Below are positions 2,547 through 30,017 of a stretch of DNA of 30,841 nt, piece by piece. The notes under the pieces are model-generated. The model did no database searches and was not told the DNA's origin. It worked only from the letters and a program-made list of their open reading frames with translations. This DNA comes from a virus: positions 1 to 30,841 of IMG/VR virus record IMGVR_UViG_3300037502_001833; one strand, 5' to 3'. Each line of letters begins with the position of its first letter. Positions within the stretch are counted from its first letter, which is position 1. Position numbers and translations under genes: made by a program.

Positions 2547-2847
2547 CACGCGCCGGGCCGCGGCGTGGGCGGGCGGCATCGAGGTCGAGACATTCCATCA
2601 GTGGCTCCGTCGCTATCCTGCTTTTTCTGACGCCGTAAAACAAGCGGAGTCCGATGCCGAGCTGGCGATGGTCGAGAGGGTGCGTCTGGCGTCGGTCGAC
2701 ACATGGCAGGCCGCCGCATGGTGGCTCGAGCGCAAGCTCAAACAGGACTGGTCGGCACGGCAGGAGCAGACCGGCGCGGACGGCGGTGCGGTGCGCGTCA
2801 TCGTCCAATACGCGGACGAGCCGGCGCAACCAGACGCTGATGGCTGA
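2479..2847 (+). CDS. terS: Terminase small subunit (HTH type), 122 aa.
   Basis: The N-terminus MPRPTKYTPERVQRIVETLRGGNTRRAAAWAGGIEVETFHQWLRRYPAFSDAV is a typical small-terminase HTH. The gene lies directly upstream of terL and overlaps it. Confidence 0.8.
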   Translation: MPRPTKYTPERVQRIVETLRGGNTRRAAAWAGGIEVETFHQWLRRYPAFSDAVKQAESDAELAMVERVRLASVDTWQAAAWWLERKLKQDWSARQEQTGADGGAVRVIVQYADEPAQPDADG

Positions 2848-4012
2848 CATAACGCTCACGCTGCCCAGACCGCATCGGTCCCAGCGCATCATCCTGGACG
2901 AGGCGCGGCGTTGGAACGTTGTCGCCTGTGGCCGTCGTTTTGGCAAGACCACACTGGGCGGCAACCTGCTCGCCGATCCGGTACTGCGCGAGGGCAAATC
3001 CGTCGCATGGTTTGCGCCGACCTACCGGCTCCTCGAGGAGGCGTACAACGATCATCGCAGGATCTACCGGCCAGTGGTCACCCGGGCCGTGCAGACGCCG
3101 GCACCGCGCATCGAGCTCATCACCGGCGCCGCGATCGATTACTGGACGCTCGACGACCCGAGCACGGTCGCCCGCGGGCGCAAATACAAACGCGTCGTGA
3201 TCGACGAGGCGGCGATGGCCCGGCATTTGGAGGTCGCATGGACCGAGGCGATTCGGCCGACACTCACCGACTGGGCCGGCGATGCGTTTTTTCTGAGCAC
3301 GCCAAAGGGCGGCAACTATTTCAAGGCGCTCTGGGATATGGCCGAGGCCGGCGGCGACTGGGCCCGATGGCAGATGCCGACGTCGAGCAACCCGTACATA
3401 CCCGGGCTCGAGATCGAGGCGGCTCGCGAGTCCATGCCCAGCATCGCGTTTCGCCAGGAGTATCTCGCCGAGTTCGTCGACGCCGCCGGCGCCCGCATAA
3501 AACGCGAGTGGCTGCGCAACCGCGACGCACCAGACGGTCTGCCCGTCGTGCTGGGAGTCGACCTCGCGATCAGCACCAAGGCCGAAGCCGACTGGACGGC
3601 AATCGTCGCGCTGTCTCGCAGCGACGACGGCAACGTCTGGATCCGTGACGCCGCCCGCATCCGCGCACCATTCGACGGCGTCCTGCGGTTCGTCGAGCAG
3701 ATGGCCGACAAATGGTCGCCGGTGTCGATCGGCATCGAGCAGGTGCAGTATCAGGCGGCTGTCGTGCAGGAGCTCCTGCGTCGCACCAGATTGCCCGTAC
3801 GGGGCATCCGTCCCGACCGCGACAAAATCACCCGGTTCGGCCCGCTCGAGGCGCGATACGAGCAGGGTCTGGTCAATCACGCGACCGACCTGCCGGCATG
3901 GTACGTCGACGAGGTGCTGTCGTTCCCGGTCGGTCGCCACGACGACGCGGTCGACGCCACGGCGTACGCATGGTCGATGCTCGACAAACGCAGGAGTTTC
4001 AGCGCCGTATGA
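2840..4012 (+). CDS. terL: Terminase large subunit, 390 aa.
   Basis: Walker A is CGRRFGKTT and Walker B-like is RVVIDEAA. The C-terminal nuclease-domain acidic motifs are GVDLA and GRHDDAVDA. I chose ATG 2840 over the longer track ORF start 2654, which overlaps terS. Confidence 0.9.
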   Translation: MADITLTLPRPHRSQRIILDEARRWNVVACGRRFGKTTLGGNLLADPVLREGKSVAWFAPTYRLLEEAYNDHRRIYRPVVTRAVQTPAPRIELITGAAIDYWTLDDPSTVARGRKYKRVVIDEAAMARHLEVAWTEAIRPTLTDWAGDAFFLSTPKGGNYFKALWDMAEAGGDWARWQMPTSSNPYIPGLEIEAARESMPSIAFRQEYLAEFVDAAGARIKREWLRNRDAPDGLPVVLGVDLAISTKAEADWTAIVALSRSDDGNVWIRDAARIRAPFDGVLRFVEQMADKWSPVSIGIEQVQYQAAVVQELLRRTRLPVRGIRPDRDKITRFGPLEARYEQGLVNHATDLPAWYVDEVLSFPVGRHDDAVDATAYAWSMLDKRRSFSAV

Positions 4013-4484: not shown

Positions 4485-6212
4485 TTGGGCATATTCGACG
4501 CAATCAACGCGGCCATCAAGGCGGCGGCTCGACGCAACGAGCCGTTGCCGCCACCGCTTGCGTCGAGGTCCAACACCGCCATCGGCACCGGGTCGGGACA
4601 GCTCGTATCGTTTCTCACCCGGCGTCTCCCAGGATCGCATCGCGACTGGGCACGCGAGGCCGGCGATCTCGGGCTCAACAGTGTCGTTGCCGTCGCGCTC
4701 GATTGGTACATCCGAAACTGGGCGCAGGGCGTCCCGCAGGTCATGCGGTACGTCGGCAACGGCCAGTCGGAGCTGGTGCCCGAGCATCCGGTGTACGACA
4801 TCCTGATGCAACCACAGCCGGGCGTCCCGCCGTCGGTGTTTTGGTCGTGGATCATCGCCGATTACAAACTGCTCGGCAACGCGTACATCCGCAAAATCCG
4901 CAGCAACAACATCGCCGGCGTCCCAACCAACCTGCAGTACCTGCCGGCCGATATGGTGCGACCCGTCGGCGATGGCAACCAGCCGGTCAAATACTGGGCC
5001 TACACAGCGGACGGTGCGACGTACAACATCGACCCGGCCGACCTGATCCACATCCGGTACAGCCGCGACCCGGTCGATATGCGTCTGGGCCGTTCGCCGG
5101 TCGCATCCGTCCTGCGCGAAATCGCGACCGACAACAGCGCATCGAGCACGGCGTACGGGCTGATGCGCAACAACGCGATGCCGTCGATGATCATCGGGCC
5201 CGATGCCCGCGACCAGATGGTCGACATCGACGAGGACTCGGCCCGCGCGCTCAAGCGCCGATTGCAGGAGAATTTCGCCGGCGACGGTGCGGGCGGCGTT
5301 GCCGTCATGCAGTCGGCGTACAAGGTCGATCGAGTCAGCCTGACGCCCAGCGAGCTCACACTCGACAGCGTCCGACGTCTGCCCGAGGAACGAATCTGCT
5401 CGGCATTGGGACTCAACCCGATGGTGCTCGGGCTCGGCAGTGGTCTCGACCGCTCGACATACTCGAACTACGAGCGGGCGCAACAGGCGGCATGGGAAGA
5501 TGGGATGATCCCGCTCATGGCGCAATTCGCGGAGGCGTTGACGATTGCGTTGCTCCCGGAGTTCCCGCAGACGGCCGACACAGACTACCTGCGATTCGAC
5601 GTCAGCGCCGTGCGGGCGCTCGCCGACGATCTGGCGGCAGAGGCCCAGCGGGCTGAGCGTCTGTACAAATCTGGCATCATCGATCGCGCAGAGGCGAAAC
5701 GCATCAGCGGTATCGAGCCCGCCGACGAGGACGAGGGCCAGATGTTCCCTGGTGCGGCCGCTCCTGCGATCGACGGCGAGCCGATTACTGCCGCGGTGCG
5801 ATCGATCGGCATCAAATCGATGCCGACCGAGGCGATGCAGACCGCCGCCCGTCGGGCGCTCGCCTGGAAACGCGACGGTCGCGCCGGCGGTACACGCGTC
5901 GGTCTGGCTCGCGCCAATCAGATTGCCAACGGTGGCGTCATCACCGAGGACACCATCCTGCGGATGTATTCGTTTTTCCGACGTCACGAGGTTGACCGCG
6001 AGGCCGAGGGATTCAACGCCGGCGAGCCCGGATACCCGAGTCCCGGTCGTGTGGCATGGGATTTGTGGGGCGGTGACGCCGGGTACGCATGGGCGACCAG
6101 ACTGCGCGACAAAATTCAGCGTGGCGAGTCGCTGGCGAAACAGCTTGATTGGGACGATGCGTCGGTGGAGGCCGGCGACGTCGACCCTTTTTGGATATTG
6201 ACAACCGAATAG
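4485..6212 (+). CDS. Portal protein (HK97-family type) with a ~130-aa C-terminal extension; 575 aa.
   Basis: TTG start with GGAGG at 4475-4479. Its size, its position after the terminase genes and its portal-like core support the call. The C-terminal block is GGTRVGLARANQIANG...FFRRHEVD...WDLWGGDAGYAWA. Confidence 0.85.
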   Translation: MGIFDAINAAIKAAARRNEPLPPPLASRSNTAIGTGSGQLVSFLTRRLPGSHRDWAREAGDLGLNSVVAVALDWYIRNWAQGVPQVMRYVGNGQSELVPEHPVYDILMQPQPGVPPSVFWSWIIADYKLLGNAYIRKIRSNNIAGVPTNLQYLPADMVRPVGDGNQPVKYWAYTADGATYNIDPADLIHIRYSRDPVDMRLGRSPVASVLREIATDNSASSTAYGLMRNNAMPSMIIGPDARDQMVDIDEDSARALKRRLQENFAGDGAGGVAVMQSAYKVDRVSLTPSELTLDSVRRLPEERICSALGLNPMVLGLGSGLDRSTYSNYERAQQAAWEDGMIPLMAQFAEALTIALLPEFPQTADTDYLRFDVSAVRALADDLAAEAQRAERLYKSGIIDRAEAKRISGIEPADEDEGQMFPGAAAPAIDGEPITAAVRSIGIKSMPTEAMQTAARRALAWKRDGRAGGTRVGLARANQIANGGVITEDTILRMYSFFRRHEVDREAEGFNAGEPGYPSPGRVAWDLWGGDAGYAWATRLRDKIQRGESLAKQLDWDDASVEAGDVDPFWILTTE

Positions 6213-7259: not shown

Positions 7260-8291
7260 ATGGATATGTTGATGACATACGGGGACGCCATCAAGGCGAC
7301 GCCAGACGGCAGGGTATCTGGGTACCTTGTGCGTTTCGGCTCGCCGCGCGACACCGACCTCGAGGGCGATTTTTTCACCAAGAGCACGGATTTTGGTCGT
7401 CCGATGGCCGAGGGCGAAACGTTCCCGTTGCGTCTGTATTACGCTCATGGCATGGACCCGAAAATCGGCCGCCGCGCGATCGGCAATGGCACCGTGAAAA
7501 TGACCGACGCCGGTCTGTGGTACGAGGGCCAGATCGAGCAGAGCGACGAATACCGCGCGATGATCAAACGGCTCGCCCAGGAGGGCCGGCTCGGCTTCTC
7601 GAGCGGTGCCGCCGGGCATCTGGTGATCCGCGAGGCCACGGGCGTCGGCAAATCGTCTCGCATCACTGCATGGCCGCTGGGCGAGGCGTCGCTGACGCCG
7701 CGCCCGGCAGAGTCGCGCAACCTCGCGTCTGTCAAATCTCTCGACGAGGTCAAAAACGATTACGAGATGCCCGATATGAGCGAGATGCCGGGCGAGATGC
7801 CCGAATCCGAGGACGAGATGCCCGCGTCGCCAGCCGATGTTTTTGCCGGCTGGCAGATGGACGCAGCCGAATCGATCATCGGGCGACTCACCGGTCGAAT
7901 GCTCGAGGCCGTAGGCGAGATGCTCGAGTACGGGCGGCCGATCGACGAGATCGACGGCGTGCTCACCGAGTATCATCGCATCCTGCTCGAGGTCGCCCAG
8001 ATGCCGACCGCCGGCAAATCGTTCCGACGATCCACCAGTCGCCCGGCGACCATCAAACAATTTGAGCGGCAGCTGCGCGACGCGCTGTCGCTGTCCCGCA
8101 GGGAGGCGGCAGCAATCGCCTCCAAATCGTGGCCCATCCTGCGTGATGCAGAGGACGGCAACGGGTCCGAAACCGAGGACGACGGTCCTGCGGTCGCGGC
8201 GAACAACGACGACCAGACCAAACTGCGGAGCGCACTGCTCCGTCGTTTGATCGCGCAACGCATCGCGGTGCAGACCGCGGTGGAGGTATGA
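7260..8291 (+). CDS. Prohead protease (HK97/S78-like) fused to an acidic scaffold-like C-terminal half; 343 aa.
   Basis: The N-terminal half reads YLVRFGSPRDTDLEGDFF...YYAHG...LGFSSG. The C-terminal half is acidic and helical, with EMP repeats. GGGAG lies upstream of ATG 7260. Confidence 0.8.
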   Translation: MDMLMTYGDAIKATPDGRVSGYLVRFGSPRDTDLEGDFFTKSTDFGRPMAEGETFPLRLYYAHGMDPKIGRRAIGNGTVKMTDAGLWYEGQIEQSDEYRAMIKRLAQEGRLGFSSGAAGHLVIREATGVGKSSRITAWPLGEASLTPRPAESRNLASVKSLDEVKNDYEMPDMSEMPGEMPESEDEMPASPADVFAGWQMDAAESIIGRLTGRMLEAVGEMLEYGRPIDEIDGVLTEYHRILLEVAQMPTAGKSFRRSTSRPATIKQFERQLRDALSLSRREAAAIASKSWPILRDAEDGNGSETEDDGPAVAANNDDQTKLRSALLRRLIAQRIAVQTAVEV

Positions 8292-8293
8292 CC

Positions 8294-9610
8294 ATGAATC
8301 GTATCGACAACCTGCGCGCCCAGATCATCGCCAACGCGACCAAGGCGCAGGACATTCTCAAGGATGACAATTTCGACCCGGCCGAGGCCGAGAAATTGCT
8401 CAACGACAACGAGGTGCTCGAGCAGCGCATCAAGGCACTCAGCCGCCTCAACGGCCGCCAGGATATGCTCCCGTACGGCGCATCTGCCAAGGTCGACCCG
8501 GCCGAGCTCGATGCCAGCGACGCCACCAAGGCGTTCGGCCAGCCGACCAATGCATCGAGCGTGTTCGGTGGCACCCGCCGCGAGGCCAACCTCAAGGCCT
8601 ACCGGTTGGGTATGTGGTTCTTGGGCGCTGTCTGCGGCAACCAGAAAGCTGCGCAGTGGATCGCCGACCGCGGCATCAAGGACCACCTCGAGTCGAACAA
8701 CGCACTGGGCGGCTACCTCGTGCCCGAGGAATTCGCCGGCGAAATCATCAACCTCGTCGAGCAGTACGGCGTGTTCCGCGCCAACGCTCGCGTGGTCTCG
8801 ATGTCCAGCGACACCCGCGTGCAGCCCAAGCGCACCAGCGGCATTACCGCCTATTTTATTGGCGAGGGTGCGTCGATCACGTCGTCCGACAACGGATTTG
8901 ACAACGTGCGGTTGACCGCCAAGAAGCTTGCGGTCTATACCCGTTTGTCGAACGAGCTGAACGAGGACGCGGCCGTCGATCTGGGTGCGTGGGTCGCGCA
9001 GGAGTGCGCCCGTGCGTTCGCCCAGAAAGAGGACGAATGCGGTTTCATCGGCGATGGGACGTCGACCTACGGCGGCATCGTGGGTGCTACCGAGGCGCTC
9101 AAGGGCGTTTCCGGTACCATCTCGTTGATCAAGGGTTTGCAGGTCGCGACCGACAACCTGTACTCGGAACTCGACCTCGCCGATTTCAACGGCGTTGTCG
9201 GCCGTCTCCCGCAGTATGCGGACACCGCCAACGCTGCATGGTACGTCAGCCGGCTGTTCTACCACAACGTCATGCGCAAGCTCGCGGATGCCGCTGGTGG
9301 CAACACCAACGAAACGCTGGCGATGGGCGTCAACCGCGAACCGATTTTCATGGGCTACCCGGTGCGCATCGCTCAGGCCATGCCGTCTGTCGAGGCTAAC
9401 TCGCAGGTCTGCGCGCTCCTGGGCGACCTGTCGCAGGGTGCGTTGTTCGGCGATCGCCGCGGCATCGGCGTCTCGATCTCGGAACACGATGCGTTCCAGG
9501 CCGACGAATTGGCGCTGCGGGCTGTTTCGCGATTCGACATCAACGCATTCGGCGTGGGCGACACCAGTGCCGCCGGCCCGATCGTCGGTCTCATCACCGC
9601 CGCGTCGTAA
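8294..9610 (+). CDS. Major capsid protein, HK97 fold, with an N-terminal delta-like domain.
   Basis: A coiled N-terminal ~100 aa is followed by ALGGYLVPEEF...FIGEGA...LAVYTRLSNELNEDA, typical of HK97-type capsids. ATG 8294 lies 7 nt after GGAGG. ATG 8288 (ATGA overlap) is the alternative start. Confidence 0.9.
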   Translation: MNRIDNLRAQIIANATKAQDILKDDNFDPAEAEKLLNDNEVLEQRIKALSRLNGRQDMLPYGASAKVDPAELDASDATKAFGQPTNASSVFGGTRREANLKAYRLGMWFLGAVCGNQKAAQWIADRGIKDHLESNNALGGYLVPEEFAGEIINLVEQYGVFRANARVVSMSSDTRVQPKRTSGITAYFIGEGASITSSDNGFDNVRLTAKKLAVYTRLSNELNEDAAVDLGAWVAQECARAFAQKEDECGFIGDGTSTYGGIVGATEALKGVSGTISLIKGLQVATDNLYSELDLADFNGVVGRLPQYADTANAAWYVSRLFYHNVMRKLADAAGGNTNETLAMGVNREPIFMGYPVRIAQAMPSVEANSQVCALLGDLSQGALFGDRRGIGVSISEHDAFQADELALRAVSRFDINAFGVGDTSAAGPIVGLITAAS

Positions 9611-24115: not shown

Positions 24116-24642
24116 GCAACAGACCGATCGCAATCGAGGCCGCACGGGCGGCGCTCGTCAACGTCGGAGTGACCGAGGTCGGTGACAACCGAGGGCAATG
24201 GGTCGAGGTTTACCAGAAGGCCGTCGGCATACCGCCCGGCTCGCCGTGGTGCGCTGCGTTTGTCCGATACCGTTTTGAGGCGGCGTCGGAAAAACTCGAT
24301 CGTGATCTGCCGTCGGCATTCCCAGACAGTGGCTGGGTGCCGAGTTACGTTGGCTGGGCGAAAACGGCTGGCCTCTGGATACCGCGCAGAACCGCTCAGG
24401 ATGACCATACACAGGTCCGACCGGGCGATCTGGCGTGTTACTGGTACGACGCGTCCCAGCGGTGCGCACACATCGGCATCGTCGTCGAGCCGGCGACAGC
24501 AGACGGATTTGTGACCGTCGAGGGCAACACCGGGCCCGATCGCGGTGTAGACGTCGAGCGGGATGGCGACGGCGTGTATCGCAAACGCCGGCGCTGGTCG
24601 TCGCTGGGCATCGGCGGAGGCATCATCCGCATCAACTGGTAG
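24112..24642 (+). CDS. Peptidoglycan hydrolase, CHAP / NlpC-P60-like (endolysin); 176 aa.
   Basis: The Cys motif is GSPWCAAFV, the His motif is CAHIGIVV, and VTVEGNT follows downstream. I chose ATG 24112 (ATGA overlap) over the longer track ORF start 23758. Confidence 0.8.
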   Translation: MSNRPIAIEAARAALVNVGVTEVGDNRGQWVEVYQKAVGIPPGSPWCAAFVRYRFEAASEKLDRDLPSAFPDSGWVPSYVGWAKTAGLWIPRRTAQDDHTQVRPGDLACYWYDASQRCAHIGIVVEPATADGFVTVEGNTGPDRGVDVERDGDGVYRKRRRWSSLGIGGGIIRINW

Positions 24643-24652
24643 GAGGTCGGCA

Positions 24653-25600
24653 ATGAGCGATTTCATCTCAGATTACAACCTCGACCGCCGGGTGCCCGAG
24701 GATTTGCAACGGCGGGTGTTGCAGATGCACCGCGCCGGCACGCCGGTCCGCGCGATCATTCACGAATTGTTCCCGGCGACGAGCGTCGGCACGGCCACGC
24801 GATGGATTCGCACCATTATCAGGAATCACAAACTCGACACCGAGACGGGCACCAAAACAAACGACCCGATCGTGGCGCGGGCCGATACACCGCTGGCGGA
24901 TCAGATCCTCGAGCTCGATGGCGACCTGCTGATCATGAGCGACCTGCACATCCCGTATCACGACGCCGACCTGATCGACACCGCGATCCGTCACGCCCAG
25001 GATATGGGCATCAAACAATGGCTGATCGTCGGCGACCTGATGGACGGCAACCAATGGAGCAAACGCGGGCTCAACCAGACGTACCAGCGACGCTGGCAGG
25101 ACGACGCCGAGGTCGCACAGGCGATCGTCGCGCAGCTCGTCGCGCACATCGGGCCCGGCACCGTGCTCATGGGCAATCACGACGCATGGTTCGTCCGACA
25201 TTTTCGCGGCCAGGCCGAGACGGAGTGGTTGCTGTCGCGGTTGTTTCGCACCGATGAAAACGTGCTCTGGTCGATGTTCGAACAGTGCAGGATCAGATCA
25301 GGCGGGCGCGAGATCCGCGCGACGCACGGCGCGAATTACAGCGGCGCAAACCCGCTGGGCGTCGGCCAGCGACTCGCGGCCAAATGGGAGTGCAGCGTTG
25401 TCATGGGCCACCAGCATCACGCGACGCACGGGCTGTCATGGTCTGGTCGGCACCAGATCGTCTGCATGGGCGGTATGCACGACCCGCGCAAACTGTCCTA
25501 TATCCACGAGGGGCCGCGGACAAACCCAGCGCAGACGCGGTCGTATGTTGTGCTGGTGGGCGGAAACATGGATCACGTCATCGCCGACGCATGGCACTGA
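24653..25600 (+). CDS. Calcineurin-like metallophosphoesterase with an N-terminal HTH-like segment; 315 aa.
   Basis: AGGAGG lies at 24641-24646. The motifs are in canonical order: SDLHIPYHD, VGDLMDG, MGNHDAW and MGHQHH. The N-terminus reads RRVLQMHRAGTPVRAIIHEL...ATRWIRTI. Confidence 0.8.
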   Translation: MSDFISDYNLDRRVPEDLQRRVLQMHRAGTPVRAIIHELFPATSVGTATRWIRTIIRNHKLDTETGTKTNDPIVARADTPLADQILELDGDLLIMSDLHIPYHDADLIDTAIRHAQDMGIKQWLIVGDLMDGNQWSKRGLNQTYQRRWQDDAEVAQAIVAQLVAHIGPGTVLMGNHDAWFVRHFRGQAETEWLLSRLFRTDENVLWSMFEQCRIRSGGREIRATHGANYSGANPLGVGQRLAAKWECSVVMGHQHHATHGLSWSGRHQIVCMGGMHDPRKLSYIHEGPRTNPAQTRSYVVLVGGNMDHVIADAWH

Positions 25601-25607
25601 TCGACGC

Positions 25608-25645
25608 AAAAAAACACCCGACCGATTGGCCGGGTGTTTGAGTTT
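25608..25645. terminator. Bidirectional rho-independent terminator between convergent genes.
   Basis: An A7 run (25608-25614) precedes a 10-bp stem with one mismatch (25614-25623 with 25628-25637) and a GATT loop. TTTGAGTTT (25637-25645) follows. Confidence 0.7.
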
Positions 25646-25676
25646 AACGTGAAAGGTCTCGCGACTCAATTGTACC

Positions 25677-26084
25677 TCAGCGCCGGGCGTCAGCATCCCA
25701 GCGCATCTGCTCGATTTGATCGCGCATCAACAGCAGGGCATCGGTCGCATCCTGATCGAAACGGCCCTCCATACGCGTTCGGTCGTTGTTGAGATCCTCC
25801 GACCAGCCGGCGCGGATGATGGCGATGTCGTCGGCGAAATCGTTGACCATTTCGCGGATGTAGGCGTTGCTCATGTTGTGCGACAAAACGAACGTCGATT
25901 CGTAACCGTACCAAGCGCGGGCAGCGATGTCGAACGCACAGGCTCGAGGTCGGGTGTGCACGTCGATGACGCCGGTCTGCCAATCGATGCGCAGGATGAG
26001 CATCTCGTTGCGGCGATTGCGGGCGATTTCGGCGCGGAGACCGTGCTCGATGGCGACGGTCGGGATGTTGATGGTTGCAGTCAT
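25677..26084 (-). CDS. Hypothetical protein, 135 aa; the only minus-strand gene.
   Basis: GGAGAACAACAATGAC is the initiation region on the minus strand. The gene ends at the bidirectional terminator. I recognised no HTH or other motif. Confidence 0.7.
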   Translation of the reverse strand: MTATINIPTVAIEHGLRAEIARNRRNEMLILRIDWQTGVIDVHTRPRACAFDIAARAWYGYESTFVLSHNMSNAYIREMVNDFADDIAIIRAGWSEDLNNDRTRMEGRFDQDATDALLLMRDQIEQMRWDADARR

Positions 26085-26116
26085 TGTTGTTCTCCGTGTC
26101 AGTGGGCTGACGTCAA

Positions 26117-26130
26117 TAGTGTACCAGAAA
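26117..26130 (-). promoter_or_regulatory. Putative leftward promoter/operator; a 14-mer shared with 29039..29052.
   Basis: The minus strand reads TTTCTGGTACACTA, i.e. an extended -10-like TGGTACACT. TTGCGA lies 16 nt upstream of TACACT as a possible -35. Confidence 0.4.
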
Positions 26131-26172
26131 ATGTAGCACTCGCAATAGATTCTGGTATGTCTCGCCTAAATA

Positions 26173-26184
26173 TTTGGTACAATA
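26173..26184 (+). promoter_or_regulatory. Putative rightward early promoter (extended -10).
   Basis: TTTGGTACAATA contains TGGTACAAT, which matches TGnTAnAAT. It is a variant of the 14-mer found at 26117 (minus strand) and 29039. Confidence 0.4.
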
Positions 26185-26210
26185 ACGATGTCGGCGACTG
26201 CAAACGCAAA

Positions 26211-26239
26211 ACGGCCCGGGCGATGGGTACCCGGGCCGT
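26211..26239. other. Perfect 10-bp inverted repeat / hairpin in the early leader.
   Basis: ACGGCCCGGG (26211-26220) pairs with CCCGGGCCGT (26230-26239) around a 9-nt loop. On the minus strand it is followed by TTTGCGTTTGC. Confidence 0.6.
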
Positions 26240-26264: not shown

Positions 26265-26408
26265 ATGGACATTATACGCAAACGACGCCGGCTCGAGATC
26301 GTCGGCAACATCCTGCTGTGCGTGTTGCTGGCGATCGGCGCGATCGCATACGGCGTCGATCTGGGCAACCGCACCGAGCAACGTCTGGCTGCGCGGTCTG
26401 CCCGATGA
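26265..26408 (+). CDS. Small single-pass membrane peptide, 47 aa.
   Basis: AGGAGA lies at 26247-26252. The product is MDIIRKRRRLEIVGNILLCVLLAIGAIAYGV.... Its stop overlaps the next ATG (ATGA). It is shorter than most ORFs listed in the supplied track and appears there only as the tail of the longer ORF 25716..26408. Confidence 0.5.
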   Translation: MDIIRKRRRLEIVGNILLCVLLAIGAIAYGVDLGNRTEQRLAARSAR

Positions 26409-26926
26409 GGTCGCGCACGTTGGATGCAGTGGTATCGGATCTCGAGGCCCGCGAACAGCAGGGCCTGATCACATACGGGTGCACGGTCGACCGGGTCGAC
26501 CTCGCCCGCACAGACTGGGTGCGCCATGCGTACCATGAGGCGCTCGACCTGGCGATGTACCTGCGCCGGGTCCAGATGGAGGACAACAACGATGTGGCTG
26601 ATGATGCCAATGACGGTGGCGGCGCTGTGGATCGTGCTCACGGCGCTGGCGATGTGCCGGCTCGCGGCACTGTCCGATCGCAGGTGACGATCGATTACCC
26701 GGCTGGCCTGTTGACGGCCGGCGCGGCCGCCGCGGTGTATCTCGCGATGCGCACGTTGACGCAGGACGGCGACACTGTCACCGTATCGGGCCGGCAGATC
26801 GCGACGATGGTCGATATGTCGCCCGTCACTGTCGAGCGCCAGATCGGCGTGCTGGTCAAGCGCGGGTACGTCGAACGCATCGAGGGCGAGCATCGCAACA
26901 GCAGATCGACGTACCGCATCCGGTGA
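26405..26926 (+). CDS. Winged-HTH DNA-binding protein, 173 aa as one ORF; candidate early regulator.
   Basis: The C-terminal 80 aa (AAVYLAMRTL...VSGRQIATMVDMSPVTVERQIGVLVKRGYVERI) look like a MarR/GntR-type wHTH. The N-terminal 60 aa are helical. An Asp/Gly-rich linker with lower GC3 joins them. Confidence 0.65.
   Translation: MRSRTLDAVVSDLEAREQQGLITYGCTVDRVDLARTDWVRHAYHEALDLAMYLRRVQMEDNNDVADDANDGGGAVDRAHGAGDVPARGTVRSQVTIDYPAGLLTAGAAAAVYLAMRTLTQDGDTVTVSGRQIATMVDMSPVTVERQIGVLVKRGYVERIEGEHRNSRSTYRIR
26592..26687 (+). CDS. Candidate overlapping 31-codon hydrophobic peptide in an alternate frame.
   Basis: GGAGG (26578-26582) lies 9 nt before ATG 26592. The product is MWLMMPMTVAALWIVLTALAMCRLAALSDRR. 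By my count GC3 is 28 of 31 codons here against 21 of 37 in the annotated frame. Its TGA overlaps an in-frame GTG (26684) at the start of the wHTH domain. Confidence 0.3.
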   Translation: MWLMMPMTVAALWIVLTALAMCRLAALSDRR

Positions 26927-27150
26927 GTCGACCCAGCGCTCGCGAGCTTTACGACCGGTACCGGCGGTGCGCATCGCCGCCGGGCTGGACGCAGGACGAC
27001 GAGCGCCAATTCCGAGCCTATTGGCTGGATCGAATCAAACAGGAGAACAACAATGACACAGACACAATATCCAATCACGGTGACACCGCGGGGGTACGAC
27101 GACCCGACGTACGAGGTCGACCGCATCCTGGACAACGTCACGGTCGGTGA
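26923..27150 (+). CDS. Small hypothetical protein, 75 aa; its 3' tail reads through the next gene start.
   Basis: GTGA overlap with the upstream stop. GC3 is high up to ~27050 and then drops where the ORF overlaps CDS 27053. Confidence 0.45.
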   Translation: MSRPSARELYDRYRRCASPPGWTQDDERQFRAYWLDRIKQENNNDTDTISNHGDTAGVRRPDVRGRPHPGQRHGR

Positions 27151-27301
27151 CATCGCACGATTGCCAGACGGCACAGCGGACCGCGCCATGCGGGCCTACC
27201 TGCGCATCATCGCCAACATTCACGCGCCGACGGCACAGGCCGACGCCCGGTACATCGAGCTGGCGTTGATGCGTCATGGGATCTGGGCGGTGACGAAATG
27301 A
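27053..27301 (+). CDS. Hypothetical protein, 82 aa.
   Basis: The ATG is preceded by the conserved block CAGGAGAACAACA. GC3 is high. Confidence 0.65.
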   Translation: MTQTQYPITVTPRGYDDPTYEVDRILDNVTVGDIARLPDGTADRAMRAYLRIIANIHAPTAQADARYIELALMRHGIWAVTK

Positions 27302-27828
27302 GATGGCACGACGTCAAACTGGTGGCGCAGTGGTACCGGATGTCGATCCGACGACGGTCGTGGGAGCAGGGAGTGGCATACAAACACGACAAATGGGAAT
27401 CCCGATACAGCGATCGTCACTCGCCCGAGTACGGCCATGCGTCCAACGACTGGATCAACCTGACGATGACGATGGCGATCTGCGAGCGCCGCATGGCCGA
27501 GGGCAAAACCAACATCGACGACAGACGCGATTACGCAATCTGCGATGCGACCGACTGGTGTCTGGCCGATTACGACACAAGGGCTGAGCTCGAGCATCTG
27601 CCGTACGGCGCGGCAAAAATCCTGGCGGTGCGCGGATTAACGGTGCGCAGGGCATCGTGGCCGTCGCACTGGCGCATGATCCACCGGCAAAAACGCGGCG
27701 ATCTCGACGACGGCGCGGCGATCTGCGACAGCAGGACCGGTCAGCTGATGATCATGCCTCGCACAGACCGCGTCGTGATGGTCGACGGGCGCGACATCGA
27801 GGTCAAGGACTGGATGGTCGTCGAATGA
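27298..27828 (+). CDS. Two-domain protein, 176 aa, with a DUF2829-like C-terminal domain.
   Basis: ATGA overlap with the upstream stop. The C-terminal ~75 aa start YGAAKILAVRGLTVRRASWP and end DIEVKDWMVVE, which matches the begin and end signatures I recall for DUF2829. Confidence 0.55.
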   Translation: MRWHDVKLVAQWYRMSIRRRSWEQGVAYKHDKWESRYSDRHSPEYGHASNDWINLTMTMAICERRMAEGKTNIDDRRDYAICDATDWCLADYDTRAELEHLPYGAAKILAVRGLTVRRASWPSHWRMIHRQKRGDLDDGAAICDSRTGQLMIMPRTDRVVMVDGRDIEVKDWMVVE

Positions 27829-28046
27829 CAGGTCTGCGTGGTGCTGATGCGTTTCGCGCACTGGTCGCCGGCAGGCGCATCAGGCGGGCTGTATGGCCCG
27901 CCGGGTGCACATGGGCGGCAAACCTCGAGGACCGCGAGTGCTCGCCGGTCATCACGGGCCCGCCGGCATGGGTGCGGCGTTGCCACGACGATCATCGCTG
28001 GTGCGGTCACCAGTGGCGCGGCAACGACTGGGAGGTGCTGGACTAA
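27825..28046 (+). CDS. DUF2829-like small protein, 73 aa.
   Basis: ATGA overlap with the upstream stop. It starts ADAFRALVAGRRIRRAVWP and ends WRGNDWEVLD. Confidence 0.55.
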   Translation: MTGLRGADAFRALVAGRRIRRAVWPAGCTWAANLEDRECSPVITGPPAWVRRCHDDHRWCGHQWRGNDWEVLD

Positions 28047-28633
28047 TGGGTCGCAATCCGATGGATTTGACGTCGCGCAGATGCAAGATCTGTGGCGACA
28101 TCTGCCCGATCGAGCAGTTCTGCCGCCCGAGCAAAAAATACCAATCTGGGTTTGTGCTCGAGACCAAATGCCGAGCCTGTTACCGCCAATACCAGCGGAC
28201 GCGCAAACAGATGCAATACGCCGACCCGGCAAAACGGCAGGTCATCCTGGACCGGGCTCGCAAATACAGGGCATTGCGGATGCCCGACCAGACCGACGCC
28301 AAACGCAACGATTTGTGCAGCTCGATCGCATGGGTGACAAACCGATGCGAAACAATCCTCGCCGGTGGCAAACCCGGTTCGGTCATCGTGTACCTGATCG
28401 AGGGCCGTGGCGCTCTGGTACCGCATGATCGCGATGCGGAGCGCCCGTGGCGTGGCAAATCATGGGCAATACGCGAGCATCGTCCCGGCATCGTCCCGCC
28501 ACGTGGCGGTATCCCGCTAATGCGCATCGTCGGCATCAGCGCATTCCCGCATTCGTTGTGTCCAGACGGGTGGCGCTGGGTCGCCAAATACACCGGCAAC
28601 TGGTTGCGCCGCCGGTACCAGGAGAACGATTGA
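28046..28633 (+). CDS. Zn-ribbon protein, 195 aa.
   Basis: TAATG overlap with the upstream stop. The N-terminal motif CKICGDICPIEQF...GFVLETKCRACY is common at the N-terminus of phage DNA-binding and HNH-associated proteins. I saw no HNH catalytic motif. Confidence 0.6.
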   Translation: MGRNPMDLTSRRCKICGDICPIEQFCRPSKKYQSGFVLETKCRACYRQYQRTRKQMQYADPAKRQVILDRARKYRALRMPDQTDAKRNDLCSSIAWVTNRCETILAGGKPGSVIVYLIEGRGALVPHDRDAERPWRGKSWAIREHRPGIVPPRGGIPLMRIVGISAFPHSLCPDGWRWVAKYTGNWLRRRYQEND

Positions 28634-29025
28634 TGCCAACGAAACCGCCGCTCGAATCCACCATACAGACCAGCATCGTCAACATCCTGACCATGCTGGG
28701 ATACACCGTCATCGAGATCGGCAGGACGCGCAGGATGGTCCCGTGCAAACGCTGCGGAGCATCGACGCCGGCGATCGGCTGGCAGGGCAACACGCCGGGC
28801 GCACCGGACCTGATGGTGACCAGCACGCGCTGGTCGGGAGATTGGGTCGGCATCGAGGTCAAACGGCCGGGCGGTGCGATCCGTCCTGAGCAACAACGTC
28901 TGGTCGACGCCGGCACGGTCGTCATCGTGCGATCGTTGCGCGATGCACTCGGCGTCGTTGTCCAGGCGGAGGCCCGGCATGGTCACCAGAGCGCCCAGAT
29001 CGACGCGGTGATCCAACAATTGTGA
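28633..29025 (+). CDS. VRR-NUC domain nuclease, 130 aa.
   Basis: TGATG overlap with the upstream stop. The motif GAPDLMV...WVGIEVKRPGGAIRPEQQRLVDAG fits VRR-NUC (PD...E-x-K). Confidence 0.75.
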   Translation: MPTKPPLESTIQTSIVNILTMLGYTVIEIGRTRRMVPCKRCGASTPAIGWQGNTPGAPDLMVTSTRWSGDWVGIEVKRPGGAIRPEQQRLVDAGTVVIVRSLRDALGVVVQAEARHGHQSAQIDAVIQQL

Positions 29026-29087: not shown

Positions 29088-30017
29088 ATGACAGATTTGG
29101 TTGTGGCGGCACCCGTGTCGGTGCCCGACGTCATGACGATGGCCGACGTCATCGTCAAATCCGGTTTGTTCCCGGCGTTCAAAAATCGCGAGAGCGCCGC
29201 CGCGATGATGCTCCTCTGCCGTGCAAAAGGCCTCGACCCGATGACCGCGGTCGAGCGCTACCACATTGTCCAGGGCCGGCCGGTGATGCGGGCCGACGCC
29301 ATGCTCGGCGAGTTCATCCGCATGGGCGGGCGAGTTGAGTGGCACCGGCGCGACGACACCGAGGCATCGGCAACATTTAGCCATCCGCAGGGCGGCTCGG
29401 TCACCGTTAGCTGGACGATCGAGATGGCACGCAAGGCGAAACTCACCGGCAAGGACATCTGGTCGCAATACCCGCGCCAGATGCTTCACGCGCGTTGTGT
29501 TTCCGAGGGCGTCCGATCTGTGTTGCCCGGCGCGACCAACGGCCTGTACACGCCCGAGGAGGCGATGAACATGGAGCCGGTGGCAGATTCTCCCGCGCCG
29601 GCGTCCAAACCCGCTGTACGGGCAATCTCGCGCGATCCCGAGCCTGTTGCCGCGTTGCCGTCGCCCGAGCCCGTCGTGGTCGATGCCGTCGTCGTCGATC
29701 CGAAAAAACTGCTCACGCTGGCGATGCAGGATTTCGCCGATGCCGCGACCGAGCGCGGCTGGGAGATCGCCGGCGCCAACGGCAAACCCAGCAAATCCAA
29801 AATGGTCGCGCTGGCCGGCAAACTGGTGACCGGGTTTGACGCCGCCGATCCCGAGCATTGGGCGCTCGCGCAGGACGCTCTGGTCGAGACCGGCGACACC
29901 GATCCGGTACCTGCGCCGGCCGACGACAACGGGCTGGTGCTCGAGGCCGAGGTCGTGACAGCCGACGCCGACACCAGCGGCACGTTCACAATCGCGGACC
30001 CGTTCGCCGACGATTGA
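29088..30017 (+). CDS. recT: RecT/Red-beta-family single-strand annealing protein, 309 aa.
   Basis: AGGAGA lies at 29075-29080. The motifs LLCRAKGLDPMTAVERYHIVQGRP...WSQYPRQMLHARCVSEGVRSVLPGATNGLYTPEE fit the family. The C-terminal tail is acidic. Confidence 0.7.
   Translation: MTDLVVAAPVSVPDVMTMADVIVKSGLFPAFKNRESAAAMMLLCRAKGLDPMTAVERYHIVQGRPVMRADAMLGEFIRMGGRVEWHRRDDTEASATFSHPQGGSVTVSWTIEMARKAKLTGKDIWSQYPRQMLHARCVSEGVRSVLPGATNGLYTPEEAMNMEPVADSPAPASKPAVRAISRDPEPVAALPSPEPVVVDAVVVDPKKLLTLAMQDFADAATERGWEIAGANGKPSKSKMVALAGKLVTGFDAADPEHWALAQDALVETGDTDPVPAPADDNGLVLEAEVVTADADTSGTFTIADPFADD

What the first reader, a model, noticed from the sequence alone, without database searches (positions are those of the whole stretch)
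27598..28046. Two adjacent DUF2829-like (Tad2-family-like) domains in the early accessory region
The C-terminal ~75 aa of CDS 27298 (YGAAKILAVRGLTVRRASWP...IEVKDWMVVE) and the whole of CDS 27825 (AFRALVAGRRIRRAVWP...GNDWEVLD) both match the begin and end signatures I associate with DUF2829. Those signatures are an N-terminal F/Y-x-x-A-x-x-x-L-x-x-G-x-x-V/I-x-R-x-x-W and a C-terminal D-W-x-V/I. A DUF2829 protein, Tad2, is known to sponge Thoeris signalling nucleotides. Two diverged copies coupled by ATGA, one of them fused to an unknown 100-aa N-terminal domain, would be an unusual arrangement. They could bind two different immune signals or form a hetero-oligomer.
Basis: inference. Interest (0 to 1): 0.65.

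Follow-up and report, generated by a model that had tools for sequence, protein, structure and literature searches.

The report
Two divergent Tad2-like phage genes
Two overlapping early genes of an uncultivated phage encode very divergent relatives of Tad2, a small viral protein that soaks up bacterial immune signals; the resemblance is real but weak, and related phages carry similar runs of such genes at the same spot.

Summary
CDS A (27298-27828, 176 aa) and CDS B (27825-28046, 73 aa) overlap by ATGA. The begin and end signatures occur only in A's C-terminal 76 aa and in B among 388 six-frame segments (0.012 expected).

Both are real genes: dN/dS is 0.15-0.5 and GC3 is 0.76-0.80.

Neither protein hits Pfam Tad2-like (PF11195) at E<=1. 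Nine relatives or neighbouring small proteins score only 12-16 bits, below the 25-bit cut-off, but PF11195 is their best or only sizeable hit.

Against 25 published Tad2 homologues, A's C-domain aligns end to end (hhalign 92%, z about 11). B aligns only over the N-terminal 22 columns (55%, z about 7). AlphaFold models are poor (pLDDT 40 and 54), yet SPO1 Tad2 is the top PDB match for both.

The canonical WNGKG motif is replaced by W-P, so the published gcADPR pocket is not intact.

The arrangement is not unusual. Tad2 fusions are published, and related phages carry two to four divergent Tad2-like genes at this locus.

Verdict: a divergent variant of a known anti-defence family. Sponge function is inferred, the ligand is unknown, and A's N-terminal 95 aa stay unassigned. 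Interest is moderate.

The parts
27298..27828 (+). CDS A, 176 aa: an unassigned N-terminal half plus a C-terminal Tad2-like domain
   Evidence: ORF and translation. Homologues are P0001 (94%), L001:6368-6871 (59%), L009:338-841 (45%) and P0005. dN/dS is 0.30-0.51 and GC3 is 0.80.
27298..27582 (+). N-terminal half of A (aa 1-95); function and fold unassigned
   Evidence: No Pfam, PHROG or NCBIfam hit. hhalign against Tad2 gives 2-3%, reached by 3/200 and 4/100 shuffles. Its HMM finds nothing outside the family. It carries a relaxed I-x-R-x-x-W ... D-W-x-L signature (a post hoc pattern).
27598..27825 (+). C-terminal Tad2-like domain of A (aa 101-176)
   Evidence: hhalign against 25 published Tad2 homologues gives 91-92%, 67-76 aligned columns, and 0/200 shuffles reach the score. 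PF11195 matches the equivalent region of L001 (E 0.29, profile 3-73) and P0006 (E 0.15). A PDB profile search puts SptTad2 8wjd on top (E 0.57). Foldseek puts 8wje SPO1 Tad2 on top (E 0.16).
27825..28046 (+). CDS B, 73 aa: a stand-alone, Trp- and Cys-rich, probable Tad2-like protein
   Evidence: ORF. There are 11 homologues at 55-97% identity. dN/dS is 0.15-0.29. hhalign against Tad2 gives 55% over 22 N-terminal columns, 0/200 shuffles. PF11195 scores E 0.027 (P0003) and 0.072 (P0007). Foldseek puts Tad2 or Tad2-like proteins on top in PDB and BFVD.
27825..27828 (+). ATGA stop/start overlap of A and B
   Evidence: Read directly. It is conserved in L001, L009 and L004.
27053..27301 (+). Upstream 82-aa gene of unknown function, syntenic with A and B; its stop overlaps A's start (ATGA)
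   Evidence: An 82-aa homologue sits directly upstream of A in L001, L002 and L009. It has no family hit.
28046..28633 (+). Downstream 195-aa gene with an N-terminal Cys-rich, endonuclease-VII-like region; it marks the 3' edge of the Tad2-like gene run in every related locus where the downstream sequence is present
   Evidence: PHROG 1035 endonuclease VII, E 9e-5. Homologues follow the Tad2-like genes in L001, L007, L009, L010 and L013. Its start overlaps B's stop (TAATG).

Best explanation
A's C-terminal 76 aa and the whole of B are two very divergent members of the Tad2-like (PF11195/DUF2829) group. They are expressed as translationally coupled early genes of an uncultivated tailed phage. 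They occupy a locus where related phages carry a variable run of two to four such genes. That locus lies between a winged-helix gene and an endonuclease-VII-like / VRR-NUC / RecT module.

Most likely each protein assembles into a small oligomer that binds and sequesters a nucleotide-derived immune signal of the host (Thoeris, CBASS or Pycsar type). The specificity would differ from SPO1 Tad2, because the WNGKG loop is replaced by W-P-x-x-x-W in both.

Shown: the genes are real and under purifying selection, the similarity to Tad2 is above chance, and the arrangement recurs. Inferred: the fold, oligomerisation, ligand binding and anti-defence role.
For: - Motif pair unique to A and B in the window, 0.012 expected.
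- Profile-profile match to 25 published Tad2 homologues, four of them verified active: A C-domain 92% over the whole domain, B 55% over alpha1-beta1. Neither score is reached by 200 column shuffles or by the reversed alignment.
- Reciprocal HMM searches: 19 of 25 (A C-domain) and 14 of 25 (B) Tad2 references fall in the top 45 of 1,303 sequences. Best E-values are 3.3e-4 and 1.3e-3.
- PF11195 is the only Pfam hit, or in two cases one of two weak ones, for nine relatives or neighbouring small proteins, at E 0.02-0.3 for a search of 24,736 families. The SPO1 Tad2 positive control scores 85.8 bits.
- SptTad2 is the top PDB sequence-profile hit.
- SPO1 Tad2 is the top Foldseek PDB hit for both models. 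Tad2-like proteins are the top two BFVD hits for B.
- Trp25 is kept in both. A motif equivalent to S-Q-T-D79 (SQLD, TQDD or PRTD, Asp invariant) is kept in the A family.
- Small size and early-operon position fit.
- Purifying selection: dN/dS 0.15-0.51.
- Tad2 homologues are already known to have diversified to gcADPR, His-ADPR, cyclic dinucleotides, cCMP/cUMP and N7-cADPR.
Against: - The window proteins have no Pfam, PHROG, NCBIfam or PDB sequence hit on their own. No relative reaches the 25-bit PF11195 cut-off.
- An HMM of canonical Tad2 gives only 6.6 bits (B) and 2.3 bits (A).
- For B only the N-terminal third aligns. A forced global alignment scores 2%.
- AlphaFold models have low confidence (pLDDT 54 and 40), so the Foldseek results (E 0.16-1.1) are not significant on their own.
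- Ligand contacts Asn26 (Pro in both) and Trp73 (not conserved in A) are missing.
- Both proteins are basic (pI 7.7 and 8.5), while SPO1 Tad2 is acidic (4.9).
- Nothing is known of the host or its defence systems. There are no relatives in GenBank phages or GTDB genomes.
- The decoys are mostly non-coding frames, which may flatter the enrichment.
Confidence: 0.45

Rival explanations
1. A's C-domain and B are Tad2-like in origin, but they are not sponges for immune signals. The small helix-plus-sheet domain has been re-used for another early function, for example binding a host or phage protein or nucleic acid in connection with the adjacent replication and recombination genes.
For: - The canonical pocket is not intact. 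Asn26 is Pro in both, and Trp73 is not conserved in A.
- The proteins are basic and Arg-rich, unlike acidic SPO1 Tad2.
- B has three invariant Cys and an invariant GPPAWVRRC block that canonical Tad2 lacks.
- The genes sit inside an operon of a winged-helix gene, an endonuclease-VII-like gene, VRR-NUC and RecT.
- One Tad2 homologue in the published table was 'tested, not active' against Thoeris.
Against: - Every member of the Tad2 family characterised in the papers read here is a signal sponge, with widely varying ligands.
- Anti-defence genes commonly lie among early genes (established knowledge).
- The number and type of these genes varies at a fixed locus, which fits arms-race genes better than a core replication function.
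Confidence: 0.28
2. A and B form an obligate hetero-oligomer. In Tad2 the pockets lie between protomers, so a mixed A/B assembly would create composite pockets that neither protein forms alone.
For: - A and B are adjacent, ATGA-coupled and co-inherited in three diverged lineages: the window, L001 and L009, at 45-70% identity.
- In every context with readable flanks, B lies next to or near another small gene that looks Tad2-like.
- Tad2 pockets are formed at protomer interfaces.
Against: - B occurs without A in several phages (L004, L007, L010-L013), where its neighbours belong to different families.
- All known sponges are homo-oligomers (10.1101/2025.07.12.664507).
- ATGA coupling runs through the whole operon, so it is not specific to the pair.
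- No multimer prediction could be run.
Confidence: 0.12
3. The resemblance is convergent or due to chance. These are unrelated small Trp- and Arg-rich phage proteins that merely share a short amphipathic-helix / R-x-x-W motif and a D-W-x-V terminus.
For: - There is no family hit above threshold anywhere.
- B's profile match is confined to 22 columns.
- The structure models are unreliable.
- The two window domains barely match each other: BLASTP gives 13 residues at E 0.008, and hhalign gives 40% over 12 columns.
Against: - A's C-domain aligns over the whole Tad2 domain at 92%, including an ungapped SQLDREAIDWMVIE / SQTDVLAEDWDIVS match.
- Independent methods (Pfam, PDB profile search, hhalign, reciprocal HMMs, Foldseek on two models and two libraries) all put Tad2 first.
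- The shuffled and reversed controls fail to reach the observed scores.
Confidence: 0.12

Closest known systems
SPO1 Tad2 (gene 34.65, 89 aa; PDB 8SME-8SMG, 8WJE), founding member of Pfam PF11195 / DUF2829
   Same: - A small early phage protein.
- N-terminal helix ending in G-x-x-V-x-R-x-x-W, and a C-terminal D-W-x-V strand.
- Trp25 equivalent present in A and B.
- An S-Q-x-D79-like motif in the A family.
- Top structural match for both models.
   Different: - WNGKG is replaced by W-P-x-x-x-W, so Asn26 is lost.
- Trp73 is not conserved in A.
- The central region is shorter and unrelated in sequence.
- The window proteins are basic rather than acidic.
- They score below the Pfam threshold, against 85.8 bits for SPO1 Tad2.
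- Ligand and oligomeric state are unknown.
HgmTad2 (AcrIIA7) and SptTad2 (PDB 8KBI-8KBM, 8WJC, 8WJD)
   Same: SptTad2 is the best PDB sequence-profile hit of the A C-domain family. Both ends align in register, with LmsqtdreakDWlvve against LASQTDMQAEDWFVLE. These proteins show that the family can carry more than one ligand site.
   Different: These proteins have a 35-41-residue insertion between beta2 and beta5 that forms the cyclic-dinucleotide pocket. A and B have short central regions with no similarity to it. E = 0.57 is not significant.
Tad2 fusion and multi-domain proteins: Acb4-Tad2 of Pasteurella phage Pm86, PF21825 (Sequestin)-Tad2, and the long forms in Yirmiya et al. Table S12, including Clostridium intestinale (162 aa)
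   Same: A Tad2-like domain sits at the C-terminus of a longer protein, as in A. The C. intestinale protein has a degenerate N-terminal Tad2-like repeat (PF11195 E 0.035) ahead of a canonical one.
   Different: A's N-terminal 95 aa match neither Acb4 (PF13876) nor PF21825 nor any other family. In the window the second Tad2-like unit is a separate gene.

Membership tests
Pfam PF11195 Tad2-like (DUF2829) | Score at or above the curated gathering threshold (25 bits) against the family HMM | tested here: not met
   A and B give no hit at E<=1, and the separated halves of A give none at E<=10. Relatives score 12.1-15.7 bits, E 0.02-0.3. The SPO1 Tad2 control scores 85.8 bits.
Pfam PF11195 Tad2-like (DUF2829) | Profile-profile similarity to bona fide Tad2 homologues over the whole domain | tested here: inconclusive
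   Met for the A C-domain: hhalign 91-92%, 67-76 columns, 0/200 shuffles. Only partly met for B: 55%, 22 N-terminal columns, and a forced global alignment gives 2%. Not met for the A N-domain (2-3%).
Pfam PF11195 Tad2-like (DUF2829) | [quoted passage not shown] | tested here: inconclusive
   AF2 secondary structure agrees: B has H6-14 plus five strands, and A's C-domain has H103-111 plus strands. But pLDDT is 54 and 40. Foldseek ranks SPO1 Tad2 first for both, at E 0.63 and 0.16 and TM 0.43 and 0.55.
Tad2 sensu stricto (gcADPR sponge) | Ligand-contact residues of SPO1 Tad2: W25, N26, W73, D79 (plus S76, T78) | tested here: not met
   W25 is kept (A W121, B W24). N26 is Pro in all A- and B-family members. 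D79 is kept in A (D157, invariant). W73 falls in a gap or is M/S/G in A. For B, W49 and D55 may correspond to W73 and D79, but only by manual alignment (inference).
Tad2 sensu stricto (gcADPR sponge) | Conserved G-W-N-G-K-G loop after beta1 | tested here: not met
   All 25 reference sequences have WNG. A has S-W-P-S-H-W and B has V-W-P-A-G-C.
Tad2 sensu stricto (gcADPR sponge) | Homotetramer with pockets at protomer interfaces | not testable with these tools
   No multimer prediction is available. The monomer models are of low confidence.
Tad2 sensu stricto (gcADPR sponge) | Binds 1''-3' gcADPR and rescues phage from Thoeris | not testable with these tools
   This needs experiment.
Phage signal-sponge proteins in general (traits listed in 10.1101/2025.07.12.664507) | Short protein (often under 100 aa) encoded by a phage, sometimes fused to another sponge domain | tested here: met
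   B is 73 aa. A's Tad2-like domain is 76 aa and is fused to a 95-aa unknown domain. The phage context is terminase, portal and capsid genes.

The most novel reading that the evidence does not exclude
This phage group carries a fast-changing set of W-P-type Tad2-like units at one locus, two to four per genome. They occur as single genes, as fusions to DUF3310, or as fusions to the unassigned 95-aa domain of A. On this reading they form a new Tad2 subfamily whose altered pocket (Pro in place of Asn26) binds a signal not yet known to be sponged. The paralogues either divide several signals between them or co-assemble. A's N-terminal domain would then be a new sponge domain or a third, degenerate Tad2 repeat.
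Probability: 0.15. Interest if true: 0.7.

Novelty: new variant of a known kind. Interest (0 to 1): 0.4.

Why it matters
Tad2 is one of the most widespread families of phage sponges for bacterial immune signals. Recent work shows its members have diversified to at least five classes of ligand.

A subfamily that current Pfam and PHROG models cannot see would extend the known range of the family. It has the key Asn replaced by Pro, and it occurs as runs of two to four diverged copies at one locus. It also offers test cases for how specificity changes and for whether paralogues co-assemble.

A's unassigned N-terminal domain is a candidate of the kind that 'fused to a known sponge' searches have already turned into a new sponge family (Sequestin).

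If the proteins prove inactive, the finding is simply a pair of divergent small phage proteins.

Tried and rejected
- **Direct family scans.** Pfam, PHROGs and NCBIfam gave nothing for A or B.
- **PDB sequence search.** Single-sequence searches gave only noise.
- **GenBank phages.** megablast of the region and tblastn of A found nothing. tblastn of B found only chance hits in helicases.
- **Exhaustive phmmer.** A against 1.84 billion representatives gave three hits, all close family, so alignment depth could not be raised.
- **Word-indexed searches.** Three runs found only close relatives, none with a Pfam label.
- **Collection scans.** The viral-contig scan with A found nothing. The GTDB genome scan with B found nothing, so no host could be named. 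The portal is at most 32% identical to any GenBank phage.
- **Canonical Tad2 HMM.** The model I built from the published homologues was too narrow: 6.6 bits for B and 2.3 bits for A.
- **hmmalign.** Aligning to that HMM only placed the N-terminal motif, so it could not map the pocket.
- **AlphaFold2.** With 4-sequence alignments the models were poor. Both prediction slots are used, and no multimer test was possible.
- **A's N-terminal half as a third Tad2 repeat.** A relaxed motif fits. Profile comparisons do not support it. I rejected it as a claim and kept it as a lead.
- **Spurious high-GC ORFs.** Rejected on GC3, dN/dS and conserved synteny.
Full report
**1. What is in the sequence**

CDS A runs 27298-27828 (+, 176 aa). 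CDS B runs 27825-28046 (+, 73 aa). They overlap by ATGA.

The flagged interval begins at A's residue 101 (LPYGAAKILAVRGLTVRRASWP...IEVKDWMVVE) and covers all of B (...ADAFRALVAGRRIRRAVWP...GNDWEVLD).

The window is a tailed-phage genome of about 62% GC. It has:
- terminase (2654-4012), portal (4485-6212), capsid (8288-9610) and a metallophosphatase (24563-25600);
- then an operon of a winged-helix protein (26318-26926), an 82-aa unknown (27053-27301), A, B, a 195-aa endonuclease-VII-like Cys-rich protein (28046-28633), a VRR-NUC-like nuclease (28633-29025) and RecT (29088-30017).

Successive genes in this operon overlap by ATGA, TAATG or TGATG. Translational coupling is therefore a property of the operon, not of the A/B pair.

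**2. Are they genes, and is the signature more than chance?**

GC3 is 0.80 for A and 0.76 for B, within the 0.72-0.84 range of the other genes. Against homologues from other metagenomes, dN/dS is 0.30-0.51 for A and 0.15-0.29 for B, with dS near 1. Both are real genes under purifying selection.

The core signature is G-x-x-[VIL]-x-R-x-x-W, then 25-75 residues, then D-W-x-[VIL] at the C-terminus. It occurs exactly twice among 388 six-frame stop-to-stop segments (50,229 residues), in A and in B. Shuffles expect 0.012, and 0 of 500 reach 2.

**3. Direct family tests fail**

A and B have no Pfam, PHROG or NCBIfam hit at E<=1 to 10. They have no meaningful PDB sequence hit and no relative in GenBank phages.

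The families are tiny.
- An exhaustive phmmer of A against 1.84 billion representatives found only P0001 (94%), P0005 and P0006.
- B has about eight clusters at 55-97% identity, plus three IMG/VR contigs.
- No GTDB genome carries B.
- The portal is at most 32% identical to any GenBank phage.

The host is unknown.

**4. Targeted tests point to Tad2**

I took SPO1 Tad2 and 24 further Tad2 homologues from the supplementary tables of Yirmiya et al. (10.1101/2023.05.01.538930). Four of them are marked as experimentally verified. I aligned their Tad2 domains.

| Query | hhalign probability | Score | Aligned columns | Column-shuffle control |
|---|---|---|---|---|
| A C-domain family | 91-92% | 36 | 67-76, end to end | 11.0 +/- 2.3, max 20.6; 0/200 reach it; reversed 8.9 |
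| B family | 55% | 25.5 | 22, N-terminal only | 10.4 +/- 2.2; 0/200 reach it |

 With L001 as master sequence, SQLDREAIDWMVIE aligns without gaps to SQTDVLAEDWDIVS. A forced global alignment of B collapses to 2%.

Reciprocal test: HMMs of the two window families were searched against 1,278 six-frame segments of all loci plus the 25 references. After self-hits they retrieve Tad2 references first.
- A C-domain: E 3.3e-4, 2.9e-3 and 0.021, with 19 of 25 references in the top 45.
- B: E 1.3e-3 and 3.6e-3, with 14 of 25 in the top 45.

The caveat is that most decoys are non-coding frames.

Pfam gives PF11195 'Tad2-like' as the only hit, or in two cases one of two weak ones, for nine proteins:

| Protein | E-value |
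|---|---|
| P0003 (B family) | 0.027 |
| P0007 (B family) | 0.072 |
| L001 A homologue, C-domain, profile positions 3-73 | 0.29 |
| P0006 (A family) | 0.15 |
| L004 76-aa neighbour | 0.043 |
| L007 78-aa neighbour | 0.029 |
| L013 68-aa neighbour | 0.022 |
| L013 68-aa and L004/L007 neighbours aside: N-terminal repeat of the C. intestinale Tad2 homologue | 0.035 |

 These E-values are for a search of 24,736 families. For the single family named in advance they correspond to p of roughly 1e-6 to 1e-5. All are still below the 25-bit curated cut-off, against 85.8 bits for SPO1 Tad2.

A PDB profile search with the A C-domain family ranks SptTad2 (8wjd) first, at E 0.57.

AlphaFold2 models from 4-sequence alignments are poor: B has pLDDT 54 and A has 40. 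Their secondary structure (a helix, then strands) agrees with Tad2. Foldseek ranks apo-SPO1 Tad2 (8wje) first of 350,542 PDB chains for both models:
- B: E 0.63, TM 0.43;
- A: E 0.16, probability 0.97, TM 0.55 normalised by target length.

Two 'Thoeris anti-defense 2-like domain-containing' proteins rank first in BFVD for B.

No single result is significant by database-wide standards. Every method puts the same family first.

I rate Tad2-like ancestry at about 0.8 for the A C-domain and about 0.6 for B.

**5. What differs from Tad2**

SPO1 Tad2 binds gcADPR through W25, N26, W73 and D79, with S76 and T78.

| SPO1 Tad2 residue | A family | B family |
|---|---|---|
| W25 | W121, kept | W24, kept |
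| N26 | Pro in every member | Pro in every member |
| W73 | In a gap, or M/S/G | Possibly W49 (manual alignment only) |
| D79 | D157, invariant, within (S/T/P)-(Q/R)-x-D | Possibly D55 (manual alignment only) |

All 25 references have WNG after beta1. Both window families have W-P-x-x-x-W instead.

In B an invariant GPPAW49VRRCxD55 block can be laid on xxAW73VPSQTD79 by eye only, so this is inference. B also has three invariant Cys (C39, C53, C60).

A and B are basic (pI 7.7 and 8.5). SPO1 Tad2 is acidic (4.9).

The published gcADPR pocket is therefore not intact. Membership of Tad2 in the strict, gcADPR-sponge sense fails on tested features.

The family's ligand range is already known to be plastic. 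It includes gcADPR, His-ADPR, cyclic dinucleotides via an insertion domain, cCMP/cUMP and N7-cADPR.

**6. The arrangement recurs and has precedents**

The order 82-aa gene, A, B, endonuclease-VII-like gene is conserved in L001 (A 59%, B 70% identical) and L009 (A 45%, B 67%). The ATGA overlap is conserved too.

In another branch (L004/L005, L007/L008, L010-L013) B occurs without A. There it is flanked by other small proteins with the same begin and end signature:
- a 77-78-aa family (MNWEDAKEAL...DATDWEVV);
- a 74-77-aa family (AAFYHLRLGRKVRCQRW...HNWEIE), which the B-family HMM hits at E 7.5e-5;
- in L013, a 68-aa protein plus a 240-aa protein that joins DUF3310 to two further stretches that look Tad2-like.

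The run always ends at the endonuclease-VII-like gene.

Published data already show related arrangements:
- long Tad2 homologues with N-terminal extensions, and one with a degenerate N-terminal repeat;
- frequent fusions of Tad2 to Acb4 and to PF21825/Sequestin.

The run of several diverged copies at one locus is not mentioned in the six papers I searched by keyword.

**7. A's N-terminal half**

Residues 1-95 have no family hit. They show no profile similarity to Tad2 (2-3%, reached by 3/200 and 4/100 shuffles), to A's C-domain or to B. Their HMM finds nothing outside the family.

The half does carry a relaxed I-x-R-x-x-W ... D-W-x-L pattern that is conserved in all homologues. That pattern occurs only three times in the window, all within A and B. 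I defined it after seeing it, so it is a lead, not evidence.

By the 'fused to a sponge' logic, the domain is a candidate new sponge domain. That is untested.

**8. Verdict**

Best reading (0.45): two very divergent Tad2-like units of a W-P subtype, part of a variable set of such genes. They most likely act as oligomeric sponges for an unidentified nucleotide signal.

| Rival | Confidence |
|---|---|
| Same ancestry, other function | 0.28 |
| Obligate A/B hetero-oligomer | 0.12 |
| Chance or convergent resemblance | 0.12 |

Novelty: a new variant of a known kind. Interest: about 0.4. The subfamily is invisible to current models and the paralogue runs are attractive test material, but fold, oligomer state, ligand and phenotype are all still inferred.

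Noticed in passing
window 27298-27582 (A residues 1-95): The unassigned N-terminal half of A carries a relaxed version of the same begin and end signature (SIRRRSW ... DATDWCLAD). It is conserved in L001 and L009. The relaxed pattern occurs only three times in the window, all within A and B. Profile comparisons do not support a third Tad2-like repeat. The domain could instead be a new domain fused to a sponge.
   Followed up: partly
window 27825-28046 (B); alignments A1 and A5: The B family has three invariant cysteines (C39, C53, C60), an invariant GPPAWVRRC block and 8% tryptophan. None of these are features of canonical Tad2. A metal site or a disulphide is possible.
   Followed up: no
L013:341-1478; L007:3310-4449; L004:2447-3498; L010:33-466: Related phages carry two to four small genes or domains that look Tad2-like at the same locus, always ending at the endonuclease-VII-like gene. 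In L013 a 240-aa protein joins DUF3310 to two such stretches. It is followed by a 68-aa Tad2-like gene (PF11195 E 0.022) and a B homologue.
   Followed up: partly
window 27757-27783 (A residues 154-162 region): The window's A (and P0001) has a 9-residue insertion (VVMVDGRDI) just before the C-terminal DW motif, relative to L001, L009 and P0005/P0006. It sits where canonical Tad2 has its S-Q-T-D ligand-contact helix.
   Followed up: no
window 28046-28633: This 195-aa protein has an N-terminal CxxC...CxxC region weakly like endonuclease VII (PHROG 1035, E 9e-5) and an unassigned C-terminal two-thirds. It is conserved directly downstream of the Tad2-like genes in all related loci. Its start overlaps B's stop (TAATG).
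   Followed up: no
window 27053-27301: An 82-aa gene with no family hit is conserved immediately upstream of A in L001, L002 and L009 and is ATGA-coupled to A. It may belong to the same functional module.
   Followed up: no
window 25612-26239: A lone minus-strand gene (25677-26084, 135 aa, no family hit) lies between the metallophosphatase gene and the early operon. A terminator-like hairpin follows it on the minus strand (25639-25612), and another minus-strand hairpin lies at 26239-26211. This may be a divergent control region. No integrase turned up among the proteins I scanned.
   Followed up: no
whole window: The window looks like most of a roughly 31-kb phage genome with no close relative in GenBank phages (portal at most 32% identity to Sinorhizobium and Microcystis phages) and none in GTDB genomes. 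Relatives come only from metagenomes (Logan SRR24791510, JGI 3300010354, IMG/VR 3300007212-16). The host is unknown.
   Followed up: partly
published Table S12 of 10.1101/2023.05.01.538930 (Clostridium intestinale DSM 6191, 162 aa): This listed Tad2 homologue has an N-terminal 68-aa stretch (MNFDKAFKLMKDGLGIKLPSW...SDEWIVAD) that itself scores PF11195 at E 0.035. It is therefore a tandem of a degenerate and a canonical Tad2 domain within one protein. The degenerate repeat also lacks WNG.
   Followed up: partly
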